Shown here in pieces: positions 56,471 through 56,773 of a stretch of DNA of 64,000 bases. The stretch comes from Shigella phage Henu11: sequence record OM953433; one strand, 5' to 3'. Below the pieces are notes generated by a model. The model saw only the letters and a program-made list of their open reading frames with translations, had not been told where the DNA came from and made no database searches. Within the stretch, counting starts at the first letter, position 1. Each line of letters opens with the position of its first letter. The position numbers and the translations under genes are program-made.

Positions 56471-56612
56471 TCATCTTTGCAGTGACTTATGGAGCTAATA
56501 TGTCGTCCCATGAGTGCCGATGAGTTTCTTGAGCATGATTCTAGATTAGCTTACTAAGAGACAACTCTACAAACCCTTTAGCAAGGTTTGCGTAGGTTAC
56601 TGCAAAGATGAT
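56471..56612 (+). repeat. element closed by 17-bp inverted repeats (CATCTTTGCAGTGAC / GTTACTGCAAAGATG)
   Basis: about 140-nt unit able to form long terminal stem; between R4 and tRNA-Lys. Confidence 0.6.
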
Positions 56613-56617
56613 TTAAT

Positions 56618-56693
56618 GGAAGTGTAGCAGAATGGTGATGCGGCAGACTTTTAATCTGACAGGCGACGGGTTCGAATCCCTCCACTTCTACCA
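56618..56693 (+). tRNA. tRNA-Lys(TTT)
   Basis: acceptor GGAAGTG; anticodon loop ctTTTaa; T-loop TTCGAAT. Confidence 0.6.
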
Positions 56694-56699
56694 AATTCG

Positions 56700-56773
56700 C
56701 CCTTAACTGAAGAACACATGCGCGGCTGGAAACACCCACTCAATTAGTTCTTCTACAAAGGGCAACTTATTAT
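56700..56773 (+). other. long imperfect hairpin
   Basis: GCCCTTAACTGAAGAAC ... GTTCTTCTACAAAGGGC. Confidence 0.4.

What the first reader, a model, noticed from the sequence alone, without database searches (positions are those of the whole stretch)
56471..56773. Inverted-repeat-bounded element and long hairpin inside the tRNA cluster
A roughly 140-nt segment is bounded by 17-bp inverted repeats that would form a long closing stem, followed after tRNA-Lys by a 74-nt imperfect hairpin. Neither is a tRNA. Such insertions in tRNA banks are typical of structured ncRNAs, homing-endonuclease target remnants or miniature inverted-repeat elements.
Basis: seen in the sequence. Interest (0 to 1): 0.4.

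Follow-up and report, generated by a model that had tools for sequence, protein, structure and literature searches.

The report
Two unannotated structured RNAs in phage tRNA bank
Two stretches between tRNA genes of a Felix-O1/Moogle-type phage are real, conserved, non-coding folded RNAs of unknown family, lying just downstream of the phage's Ro60-like RNA-binding protein gene, which makes them candidate partner or decoy RNAs for it.

Summary
Both observations are real. E140 (56469-56613) is a ~145-nt element closed by a 21-24 bp helix that ends 4 nt before tRNA-Lys(UUU). It is present in about 270 Ounavirinae genomes in three sequence types. A Yersinia phage has the same architecture built from unrelated stem sequences. 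The closing stem, two inner helices and a 5-7 bp pseudoknot all show compensatory changes. No ORF is conserved.

H74 (56699-56763) is a 65-nt hairpin with an invariant 24-nt apical module. It fills a "tRNA slot" between tRNA-Lys and tRNA-Met. It is a clean 76-nt presence/absence cassette: phage Sf14 lacks it exactly. It also occurs in the tRNA banks of Vequintavirinae, Stephanstirmvirinae and Yersinia phage P778, behind different tRNAs, and 9 of its 21 pairs covary.

Neither matches any Rfam family or tRNA model, and both are single-copy, so they are not MITEs or homing-endonuclease remnants.

Context found here: the ORF just upstream of the bank (53883-55298) folds as a Ro60/TROVE protein, and a YrlA-like tRNA mimic directly abuts E140.

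Most likely both are small stable RNAs released from the polycistronic tRNA transcript by tRNA-processing enzymes. A Ro60-associated role is inferred, not shown.

The parts
56469..56613 (+). E140: whole inverted-repeat-bounded structured RNA element, ending 4 nt before tRNA-Lys(UUU)
   Evidence: MFE z = -5.2. Conserved in 273 phage records. Covariation shown.
56469..56491 (+). E140 closing helix, 5' strand (pairs with 56591-56613)
   Evidence: Counted together with hairpin Hc across types A, B and C. 98.2% of cells are paired. 10 of 29 pairs changed on both sides, against 4.5 +/- 0.9 in shuffles (0/500). Slid controls gave 0-1.
56591..56613 (+). E140 closing helix, 3' strand
56494..56498 (+). 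GCUAA, the 5' partner of the proposed pseudoknot with the Hc loop (UUAGC, 56578-56582)
   Evidence: A segment complementary to the Hc loop lies at element positions 27-36 in all four lineages. Type A has GCUAA/UUAGC. Type B has GCUUA/UAAGC, a compensatory change. Type C has UUGCUUA/UAAGCAA (7 bp). P778 has GCUAA/UUAGC.
56524..56531 (+). Helix Hx, 5' strand GUUUCUUG (pairs with UAAGAGAC at 56555-56562)
   Evidence: the three varying pairs show GC/GU/AU, UA/UG/CG and UA/CG. This contradicts the alternative AGAG/CUCU hairpin in the MFE fold.
56555..56562 (+). Helix Hx, 3' strand
56536..56548 (+). Hairpin Ht, UGAUU-CUA-GAUUA. The AUUCUAGAUU motif is conserved in types A and B.
   Evidence: In type B, locus L017 changes AA to GG and keeps G-U pairs.
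56570..56590 (+). Hairpin Hc, CAAACC-CUUUAGCAA-GGUUUG, with the conserved loop YUUAGCAA
   Evidence: The stem differs in each lineage while the loop is kept. Type A has CAAACC/GGUUUG, type B CAGAC/GUCUG, type C CAGUC/GACUG and P778 AAAGUC/GACUUU.
56618..56693 (+). tRNA-Lys(UUU). Its 5' end would define the 3' end of E140 after RNase P cleavage.
   Evidence: ARAGORN; Rfam 54.2 bits. The RNase P step is inferred.
56699..56763 (+). H74: hairpin RNA with P1 at 56699-56704/56758-56763 and P2 at 56709-56715/56747-56753
   Evidence: MFE z = -5.15. Model R1 scores 67.5 bits at 56699-56767. 9 of 21 pairs changed on both sides, against 2.0 +/- 1.1 in shuffles (0/500).
56720..56743 (+). H74 apical module GCGCGGCUGGAAACACCCACUCAA, including a GAAA tetraloop at 56729-56732. 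The central 19 nt (56721-56739) are identical in every copy; the flanking bases differ only in the L013/L061 variant.
   Evidence: The 19-nt core occurs once in the window, with 0 expected by chance.
56695..56770 (+). The exact 76-nt H74 cassette that is absent from phage Sf14
   Evidence: Pairwise alignment with Sf14. The flanks are identical and the junction reads CCAA|TATGG.
56346..56465 (+). Context: U4, a YrlA-like tRNA mimic directly 5' of E140. Its parts are a closing stem (56346-52/56459-65), V hairpin (56377-93), T-arm (56398-56414), capped acceptor-like hairpin (56415-30) and D-arm (56433-47).
   Evidence: 97.6% of cells are paired. The acceptor-like hairpin has 3 of 7 pairs changed on both sides. 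The architecture follows PMC4201824.
53883..55298 (+). Context: Ro60/TROVE-vWA-like protein gene immediately upstream of the tRNA bank, on the same strand
   Evidence: Pfam DUF2828 + DUF7788. phrog_850 'RNA-binding protein'. AlphaFold model with pLDDT 88. The top 13 Foldseek PDB hits are all Ro60/TROVE/Rsr.

Best explanation
Both features are genuine non-coding RNA modules. They are transcribed with the tRNAs as part of one polycistronic unit that starts just after the phage's Ro60-like gene.

E140 is a ~145-nt compact RNA. A 21-24 bp terminal helix encloses a multi-helix core (Hx, Ht, Hc). The core is locked by a pseudoknot between the strand that leaves the terminal helix and the loop of the last hairpin. 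E140 is physically coupled to tRNA-Lys(UUU), so RNase P cleavage at the tRNA's 5' end would create its 3' end. This is the 'tRNA punctuation' principle. The long terminal helix would then protect it from exonucleases, or serve as an RNase III entry site.

H74 is a 65-nt hairpin RNA that behaves like a tRNA gene cassette.
- It starts 5-8 nt after the CCA of the preceding tRNA.
- It has a 6-7 bp acceptor-like P1.
- In some phages P1 is followed by ACCA, so the same enzymes that mature tRNAs would release it.
- Its invariant apical module, which carries a GNRA tetraloop, is the likely business end.
- It is exchanged horizontally between the tRNA banks of unrelated virulent enterobacterial myoviruses.

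What is shown: the structures, their conservation and covariation, the lack of coding potential, single-copy status, the cassette indel, and the Ro60-like neighbour.

What is inferred: that both accumulate as discrete stable RNAs, which enzymes cut them, and that they act as ligands (Y-RNA-like cofactors or decoys) for the phage Ro60 homologue or for host RNA enzymes.
For: Structure beyond chance:
- Fold z-scores are -5.2 for E140 and -5.15 for H74.

E140 conservation and covariation:
- It is found in 273 records, and types A and B are about 78% identical.
- For the closing stem plus Hc, 10 of 29 pairs changed on both sides, against 4.5 +/- 0.9 in shuffles (0/500). Slid controls gave 0-1.
- Within type A, helix Hx shows the stepwise series GC > GU > AU.
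- The pseudoknot is complementary in four lineages, with one compensatory swap.
- Yersinia phage P778 has the same architecture from unrelated stem sequences: a 23-bp stem, an Hc hairpin with the loop CCUUAGCAA, then tRNA-Lys.
- In L055, E140 is kept although the U4 unit is absent.

No coding potential:
- The longest ORFs are 22, 9, 12, 8, 5, 26 and 6 aa in seven variants. The window's 22-aa frame is broken by a 1-nt indel in L007.

H74:
- 9 of 21 pairs changed on both sides, against 2.0 +/- 1.1 (0/500).
- The 19-nt core is identical in Ounavirinae, Vequintavirinae, Stephanstirmvirinae and P778. It always lies just 3' of a tRNA on the tRNA strand.
- There is a clean 76-nt indel against Sf14.
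- ACCA follows P1 in L030 and L031.
- Model R1 finds exactly one copy per positive locus and none in negative loci.

Context:
- The upstream ORF folds as Ro60.
- The same gene order (Ro60-like gene, then AGAAG..CAGCAA / YrlA-like units, then tRNAs plus H74) is seen in L026.
- Bas63 gp130, a Felixounavirus Ro60-like protein, counters the Ppl defence. Its Y RNAs are still unidentified (PMC11482910).
- Y RNAs are normally encoded within 4 kb of Ro60 on the same strand (PMC4201824).

Precedent:
- T4 encodes the stable RNAs rnaC and rnaD inside its tRNA cluster.
Against: - There are no expression or processing data for these elements. A literature search found none.
- Neither element carries the Ro60-binding motif GNCGAAN0-1G/CGAA, and neither scores with the Rfam YrlA model.
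- The stem sequence of E140 is not conserved in P778. This argues against sequence-specific protein recognition of the stem.
- Most covariation in E140 comes from a few deep splits (types A, B, C). The number of independent events is therefore modest, and the shuffle control ignores phylogeny.
- H74's 3' tail is ACCA in only two lineages. Elsewhere it is AAC(A/U), ACCC or UUCC.
- Most Felixounaviruses do without H74, so it is dispensable.
- Long-stem spacers also precede other tRNAs (58271-58350 before tRNA-Leu). E140's helix could therefore be a generic processing device.
Confidence: 0.55

Rival explanations
1. E140 is purely a cis-acting processing or insulating spacer. Its ~22-bp helix would be an RNase III site that separates the upstream Y-like RNA from tRNA-Lys, or would modulate RNase P access to tRNA-Lys. 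The excised interior would have no function of its own.
For: - The helix is a continuous 21-24 bp duplex ending 1-5 nt from tRNA +1.
- A paralogous stem sharing the motif CUNCAAAGAU..UUUAAUG precedes tRNA-Leu at 58271-58350 (I6 and D15).
- Unrelated long-stem spacers also precede tRNA-Lys(UUU) in L025 and L024.
- From my own knowledge, not re-checked here: RNase III takes part in T4 tRNA-cluster processing.
Against: - The interior is itself under structural selection. Hx, Ht, Hc and a pseudoknot are kept with compensatory changes across lineages.
- A mere spacer stem would not need this.
- The Hc loop sequence YUUAGCAA is conserved even in P778.
Confidence: 0.25
2. H74 is a badly degenerated tRNA gene (pseudogene) that is being lost from tRNA banks and has no function.
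For: - It occupies a tRNA slot.
- It has an acceptor-like stem.
- It carries ACCA in two lineages.
- It is absent from many relatives.
Against: - The 19-nt core is 100% identical across three phage subfamilies, while the stems around it covary. That is purifying selection, not decay.
- No cloverleaf, T-arm or D-arm is present.
- ARAGORN (relaxed) and Rfam tRNA do not detect it.
Confidence: 0.07
3. One or both elements are mobile DNA (a MITE) or the leftover target or footprint of a homing endonuclease, so the inverted repeats act at the DNA level.
For: - Inverted repeats bound both elements.
- H74 is a presence/absence cassette shared between unrelated phages.
- An HNH gene lies 100 nt downstream at 56868-57353.
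Against: - Each is single-copy per genome.
- There is no target-site duplication.
- The arms covary instead of being conserved.
- Both elements always lie on the tRNA strand.
- H74 and the HNH gene occur independently of each other.
- E140 shows no empty site in any relative examined.
Confidence: 0.05
4. The elements encode small proteins. Some GenBank records annotate 'hypothetical protein' at these positions.
For: There is a 22-aa ORF in the window's E140. 'Hypothetical protein' annotations overlap the region in several records.
Against: The ORF is not conserved. It is broken by a 1-nt indel in close relatives, and the longest ORFs in the other types are unrelated and 5-26 aa long. The substitution pattern is pairwise-compensatory, not codon-like.
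Confidence: 0.02

Closest known systems
Bacterial and phage Y RNAs (YrlA/YrlB, Yrn1; Rfam RF02553), partners of Ro60/Rsr
   Same: - They are encoded within about 1.5 kb downstream of a Ro60-fold gene on the same strand.
- E140 has the generic Y-RNA shape: a long helix formed by the 5' and 3' ends plus a large structured interior.
- A YrlA-type tRNA mimic (V, T, AS and D arms inside a closing stem) directly abuts E140.
   Different: - Neither E140 nor H74 has the GNCGAAN0-1G/CGAA motif, a T-arm or a D-arm.
- Neither scores with RF02553, and even the neighbouring U4 does not.
- The phage protein belongs to the divergent DUF2828 branch, only 11-17% identical to solved Ro60s.
- Binding has not been tested.
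Phage T4 stable RNAs rnaC (species 1, 139 nt) and rnaD (species 2, 119 nt)
   Same: They are non-tRNA, non-coding small RNAs encoded inside a phage tRNA cluster on the tRNA strand. They lie next to tRNA genes and a homing-endonuclease gene, are of similar size, and their function is still unknown.
   Different: BLAST found no sequence similarity. T4 rnaC ends in a tRNA-like T-arm plus acceptor, which E140 and H74 lack. rnaD is not significantly structured (z = -0.8).
RNase III processing stems (rRNA operon stems, T7 early-region sites)
   Same: E140's closing helix is an uninterrupted duplex of about 22 bp that brackets a discrete RNA inside a polycistronic transcript.
   Different: The interior carries its own conserved, pseudoknotted fold. 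Cleavage has not been tested.
RNase P hairpin substrates and tRNA-like minihelices (for example the precursor of 4.5S RNA)
   Same: H74 is a long irregular hairpin with a G-C-rich terminal stem. It follows a short single-stranded leader and is followed by A(C/A)C(A).
   Different: It has no SRP domain IV motif and no Rfam SRP hit. Its apical module is unique. Processing has not been tested.

Membership tests
tRNA (Rfam RF00005 / ARAGORN) | Cloverleaf with acceptor, D, anticodon and T arms, detected by a tRNA covariance model | tested here: not met
   No tRNA call covers 56469-56613 or 56699-56763. ARAGORN at -ps70/-ps80 and in mitochondrial mode finds only tRNA-Lys.
Y RNA / YrlA | Encoded near a Ro60 orthologue (within 4 kb) on the same strand | tested here: met
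   The Ro60-fold ORF lies at 53883-55298 (+). E140 lies 1.2 kb and H74 1.4 kb downstream on the + strand.
Y RNA / YrlA | Long helix formed by the 5' and 3' ends, enclosing a large internal loop or module | tested here: met
   E140 has a 23-bp terminal helix with covariation. H74 is a single irregular hairpin, so this is met only loosely for H74.
Y RNA / YrlA | Ro60-binding motif GNCGAAN0-1G (CGAA) near the 5' strand of the stem | tested here: not met
   Read from the sequences. E140 type A has only GCCGAUG in its interior, types B and C have none, and H74 has none.
Y RNA / YrlA | tRNA-like T and D arms, and a score at or above the gathering cut-off with RF02553 | tested here: not met
   There is no YrlA hit at E <= 10 on 56190-56780 or 56335-56475. 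T and D arms occur only in the neighbouring U4.
Y RNA / YrlA | Physical association with Ro60/Rsr | not testable with these tools
   This needs RIP, CLIP or EMSA with the phage protein.
Miniature inverted-repeat transposable element | Terminal inverted repeats, a target-site duplication and multiple dispersed copies | tested here: not met
   Inverted repeats are present. However, each element has one copy per genome and there is no TSD at the H74 junction.
Homing-endonuclease gene or remnant | A (degraded) nuclease ORF, or a conserved cleavage target linked to a nuclease gene | tested here: not met
   No conserved ORF exists. H74 and the HNH gene at 56868-57353 occur independently of each other.
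Intrinsic terminator | G+C-rich hairpin followed by a U tract | tested here: not met
   The terminator scan reports nothing at either element. No T run follows either one.
RNase III processing stem | About two turns (>= 20 bp) of near-perfect dsRNA | tested here: met
   Types A, B and C have 21-24 bp. Actual cleavage is not testable here.
Known self-cleaving ribozymes and riboswitches (Rfam 15) | A score with any of the 4227 covariance models | tested here: not met
   The only hits on the elements are sub-threshold chance snoRNA and IMES matches, at 13-14 bits with E > 1. The same holds for types B and C, P778 and the Mydovirus loci.

The most novel reading that the evidence does not exclude
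E140, H74 or both are the so-far unidentified RNA partners or regulators of the DUF2828-type phage Ro60 homologue. This protein is Bas63 gp130, which counters the Ppl defence. Together with the adjacent YrlA-like tRNA mimic and the AGAAG..CAGCAA units, they would form a phage Ro60 RNP toolkit embedded in the tRNA bank. H74 would be a horizontally traded accessory module of that toolkit. Alternatively, H74 could be a tRNA-end decoy against tRNA-targeting immune nucleases.
Probability: 0.2. Interest if true: 0.8.

Novelty: new variant of a known kind. Interest (0 to 1): 0.6.

Why it matters
Phage tRNA banks are usually annotated as tRNAs plus junk spacers. Here two spacers turn out to be conserved, covariation-supported RNA families that are absent from Rfam. 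One of them is traded between three phage subfamilies.

They lie right behind a Ro60-fold gene. In a sister phage that gene has been reported to neutralise a bacterial defence system (Ppl), and its RNA partners are unknown. This gives concrete, short candidate RNAs and natural controls for testing what a phage Ro60 RNP contains and does. The controls are Sf14, which lacks H74, and L055, which lacks the tRNA mimic but keeps E140.

It also offers a new example of tRNA-punctuated release of non-tRNA RNAs in bacteria.

Tried and rejected
- Rfam, permissive E-value mode. I searched the window region, the element alone, and loci carrying types B and C, P778, Mydovirus and Stephanstirmvirinae. No family matched either element.
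- ARAGORN, relaxed and mitochondrial modes. No tRNA-like call for either element.
- Host origin or antisense target. BLAST of both elements against 5,426 E. coli genomes found no match at E <= 1.
- Bacterial origin of H74. The 19-mer core was scanned in 185,579 species genomes. It gave only chance hits inside GC-rich coding regions.
- Metagenomes. True H74 copies came only from the same three phage groups.
- Extra or diverged H74 copies. A covariance model found none.
- Extra E140 copies. nhmmer on the window and on non-Ounavirinae loci found none. The only weak similarity is to the stem at 58322-58352.
- Coding hypothesis. Rejected, because the ORFs are not conserved.
- The MFE fold of E140's interior (GAGCUAAU/AUUAGCUU and AGAG/CUCU hairpins). 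Rejected in favour of Hx, Ht and the pseudoknot, because only these are kept by compensatory changes.
- Hammerhead-like CUGANGA..GAAA in H74. CUGANGA is not conserved between copies and lies inside stem P2.
- Anticodon-loop mimicry (CUGGAAA). There is no flanking stem.
- T4 rnaC/rnaD homology. They share position and size only.
- Literature. I found no paper describing these elements.
- MAFFT alignments of H74 (A2, A3) were out of register. I replaced them with a model-based alignment (A6).

Full report
**Setting.** The window is a Felix-O1/Moogle-type myovirus (Ounavirinae). Region 56150-56900 is 98% identical to Citrobacter phage BSwM KMM2 and to Shigella phages Sf13-Sf19, and 254 phage records match it. 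A bank of 26 tRNA genes runs on the + strand from 55464 to 60863. The finding covers two separate objects. I call them E140 (56469-56613) and H74 (56699-56763). They lie on either side of tRNA-Lys(UUU) at 56618-56693.

**Observation check.**
- The inverted repeat is real. Its arms are 56469-56489 and 56593-56613, 21 nt long and 90% complementary (I5).
- As RNA, 56465-56617 folds with a 23-bp closing helix. The MFE is -53.4 kcal/mol against -32.7 +/- 4.0 for shuffles, giving z = -5.2.
- The hairpin after tRNA-Lys folds at -23.2 against -10.8 +/- 2.4 kcal/mol, giving z = -5.15.
- Neither is a tRNA by ARAGORN, even with relaxed settings, or by Rfam.
- No Rfam family reaches even E = 1 on either element.

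**E140: conservation.**
- It is present at the same place in 273 GenBank phage records.
- Two main sequence types exist. Type A is the window, Moogle and SUSP group. Type B is the Felix O1 group. They are about 78% identical.
- A third type, C, occurs in a divergent Ounavirinae contig, L055.

**E140: helices supported by covariation.**
- For the closing helix and the 3'-proximal hairpin Hc, 98.2% of cells are paired across the three types. Ten of 29 pairs changed on both sides, against 4.5 +/- 0.9 in column shuffles (0/500) and 0-1 in slid controls.
- Within type A alone a further helix emerges: Hx, 56524-56531 with 56555-56562. It shows stepwise compensation, GC > GU > AU and UG > CG/UA and UA > CG. 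This overrules the hairpins that the MFE fold placed there.
- Hx encloses a small hairpin, Ht (UGAUU-CUA-GAUUA). Its counterpart in type B keeps pairing through A-U to G-U changes.

**E140: pseudoknot.** The five to seven bases that follow the 5' strand of the closing helix are complementary to the Hc loop in every lineage.
- Type A: GCUAA/UUAGC.
- Type B: GCUUA/UAAGC, where one pair is swapped on both sides.
- Type C: UUGCUUA/UAAGCAA.
- Yersinia phage P778: GCUAA/UUAGC.

**E140: the P778 case.** P778 is the most telling comparison.
- Its stems share no sequence with the window.
- Yet it has a 23-bp closing helix, an Hc hairpin AAAGUC-CCUUAGCAA-GACUUU set against the 3' strand of that helix, and then tRNA-Lys(UUU) a few bases later. 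Its fold z-score is -3.8.
- E140 is therefore a compact, pseudoknotted RNA tied to tRNA-Lys, not a random palindrome.

**E140: other properties.**
- No ORF is conserved. The longest ORFs are 22, 9, 12, 8, 5, 26 and 6 aa in seven variants, and the window's frame is broken by a 1-nt indel in L007.
- No second copy is found in the window. Related genomes carry a single copy, apart from two records with a second match, probably the tRNA-Lys paralogue.
- In L055, E140 is retained although the upstream tRNA-like unit is absent. The two are therefore separable.

**H74: a cassette.**
- Most Felixounaviruses have tRNA-Lys and tRNA-Met only 4-5 nt apart. A subset, including the window, carries an ~80-nt insert.
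- Phage Sf14 is identical in both flanks and lacks exactly 56695-56770. Its junction reads CCAA|TATGG, with no target duplication beyond an ambiguous AT.

**H74: distribution.** The same hairpin occurs in other phage groups, each time a few bases after a different tRNA and on the tRNA strand.
- Mydovirus and other Vequintavirinae, after tRNA-Gly, tRNA-Ser or tRNA-Tyr.
- Stephanstirmvirinae, after tRNA-Thr.
- Yersinia phage P778, after tRNA-Met.

**H74: structure.**
- The core CGCGGCUGGAAACACCCAC is identical in all copies, while the stems around it differ.
- On a model-based alignment of 17 distinct sequences, 9 of 21 pairs changed on both sides. Shuffles gave 2.0 +/- 1.1 (0/500) and slid controls 0-2.
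- The variant in L013 replaces UGCG/CUCA with UUCG/CGAA. This supports a third helix that closes the apical module.
- The apical module carries a GAAA tetraloop.
- In P778 and KE23, P1 is followed by ACCA, in ABPH49 by ACCC, and elsewhere mostly by AAC. The leader between the preceding CCA and P1 is 5-8 nt, like the spacing between tRNAs.

**H74: where it is not found.**
- The core 19-mer is absent from 185,579 bacterial species genomes, apart from chance hits inside GC-rich genes. It is also absent from E. coli.
- Metagenome hits come from the same phage groups.
- The model finds exactly one copy per positive locus and none in negative loci.
- H74 presence is independent of the HNH gene at 56868-57353.

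**Context: the Ro60-like gene.**
- The ORF that ends 165 nt before the first tRNA (53883-55298, 471 aa) carries DUF2828 and DUF7788. It belongs to phrog_850, 'RNA-binding protein'.
- An AlphaFold model has mean pLDDT 88.
- By Foldseek its 13 best PDB matches are all Ro60/TROVE proteins. They include the Thermus phage phiLo Ro60, Xenopus and human Ro60 and Deinococcus Rsr (E 5e-9 to 1e-6, TM up to 0.65).
- A preprint on the Felixounavirus Bas63 reached the same structural conclusion for gp130. It showed that gp130 counters the Ppl defence, and it guessed that 'some tRNA genes are possibly Y RNAs' (PMC11482910).

**Context: the tRNA mimic U4.** Directly 5' of E140 lies U4 (56346-56465).
- It consists of a closing stem, a V hairpin, a perfect T-arm, a capped acceptor-like hairpin and a D-arm.
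- The acceptor-like hairpin exists in three compensating versions. One of them has GCCA in its loop.
- This is the order of modules described for YrlA (PMC4201824).
- U4 does not score with Rfam's YrlA model. Analogous units in Klebsiella phage phi1_175008 do score, at 34-36 bits, which is below the cut-off of 69.

**Context: the repeated units.**
- Four units share the motif AGAAG-N-CAGCAA with a 3' GGUCUGG. They lie at 55637, 55800, 56255 and 56343, against 0.59 expected by chance.
- They recur in every Ounavirinae locus and in Stephanstirmvirinae. There the Ro60-like gene again sits just upstream.

**Context: the transcription unit.** Promoter-like sites at 55407-55436 and 57438-57466 bracket a putative transcription unit that contains all of this. 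These are consensus matches only.

**Interpretation.** The structures, conservation, covariation, non-coding nature, single-copy status and cassette behaviour are shown. From these I infer that both elements are small RNAs released from the polycistronic tRNA precursor by the tRNA-processing machinery.
- For E140, RNase P cutting at tRNA-Lys +1 would set the 3' end. The long helix would give stability or serve as an RNase III site.
- H74 would be matured like a tRNA.
- Each would act through its conserved loop or pseudoknot core (E140) or invariant apical module (H74).

A role with the phage Ro60 homologue is attractive because of position and strand. It is not established, because neither element has the CGAA-type motif or T and D arms, and neither scores with the YrlA model.

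**Main rival.** E140 could be only a processing spacer. Similar long stems precede tRNA-Leu at 58271-58350 and precede tRNA-Lys in unrelated phages. The selected interior fold argues against this. The MITE, homing-remnant, pseudogene and small-ORF readings are each contradicted by a direct test.

**Comparison with known systems.**
- The nearest known things are bacterial and phage Y RNAs, which share the context and general shape but fail the defining motifs.
- Next are the T4 stable RNAs rnaC and rnaD. They share position, size and unknown function but are not homologous.
- I file E140 and H74 as new RNA families of a known general kind: accessory stable RNAs of phage tRNA banks. They are not members of any named family.

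**Caveats.**
- The covariation rests on a limited number of independent lineages, and the shuffle control ignores phylogeny.
- The H74 alignment was fitted to the model structure.
- The calibration E-values of the home-made model are rough.
- All processing steps and any trans function are inferred.

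Noticed in passing
window 53883-55298 (+): This 471-aa ORF (DUF2828 + DUF7788, phrog_850) folds as a Ro60/TROVE-vWA ring protein and lies directly upstream of the tRNA bank. It has thousands of homologues in large tRNA-rich phages, including Vibrio schizoT4-like phages and phages of 140-150 kb.
   Followed up: yes
window 56346-56465 (+): U4 is a circularly permuted tRNA-like or YrlA-like unit. It has a closing stem, a V hairpin with loop CUGAUAA, a T-arm, a capped 7-bp acceptor-like hairpin in three compensating versions (one with GCCA in the loop) and a D-arm. Some GenBank records list an extra tRNA-Ile in this region, which may correspond to U4. It scores 30.4 bits with Rfam tRNA but does not score with YrlA.
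   Followed up: partly
window 55637-55705, 55800-55864, 56255-56328, 56343-56468: There are four units of the form ACAGAAGACC-N3-UACAGCAA ... GGUCUGGU between tRNAs, against 0.59 expected by chance. The same unit type occurs in Stephanstirmvirinae phages next to their Ro60-like gene. Rfam gives weak, sub-threshold matches to Dictyostelium Class I RNA (19-24 bits), which has a similar stem plus CUUACAGCAA motif. That resemblance is probably coincidental.
   Followed up: partly
window 58271-58350 (+): An 80-nt hairpin lies just before tRNA-Leu(UAG). Its stem shares the motif UCUUUNNAG / CUNCAAAGAU-UUAAUG with E140's closing helix, so it may be a paralogous processing stem (I6 and D15).
   Followed up: no
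window 56199-56248 and 59750-59774: Two conserved hairpins follow tRNA-Asp. The second, AAAGAGUUCUUACGAGUAUUCUUUAA, has a paralogue at 59750. It shows an A-U to G-C compensatory change in relatives (D20, 18).
   Followed up: no
window 56868-57353 (+): A 161-aa ORF with HNH-type motifs (CxxC...HH...CxxCH) is inserted between tRNA-Met and tRNA-Ile. It is absent from Sf14 and many relatives, and it has no Pfam hit at E <= 0.01.
   Followed up: partly
window about 57920-58000 (+): This tRNA-like sequence has an acceptor stem GGGACG/CGUCCC, a T-arm GGGGUUCGAUUCCUCC and an anticodon-like stem GUAAG/CUUAC around a 9-nt loop CCUCCAAAA. Neither ARAGORN nor Rfam calls it.
   Followed up: no
L025 106-221, 256-358 and 786-900; L024 2860-2950: Klebsiella phage phi1_175008 has two sub-threshold YrlA matches (36.4 and 34.3 bits) upstream of its tRNA bank. 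It also has a ~100-nt element closed by a ~20-bp stem just before its tRNA-Lys(UUU). Mydovirus VIK251 also has a hairpin before its tRNA-Lys.
   Followed up: partly
L026 9301-9375; L027 5383-5457: ARAGORN calls a tRNA with a CUA (amber-reading) anticodon in the 148-kb IMG/VR contig. It also calls a tRNA with a 2-base 'anticodon' in BIS47.
   Followed up: no
window 59889-60686 (+): A 265-aa DUF7217 protein gene sits inside the tRNA bank, between tRNA-Phe and tRNA-Ser.
   Followed up: no
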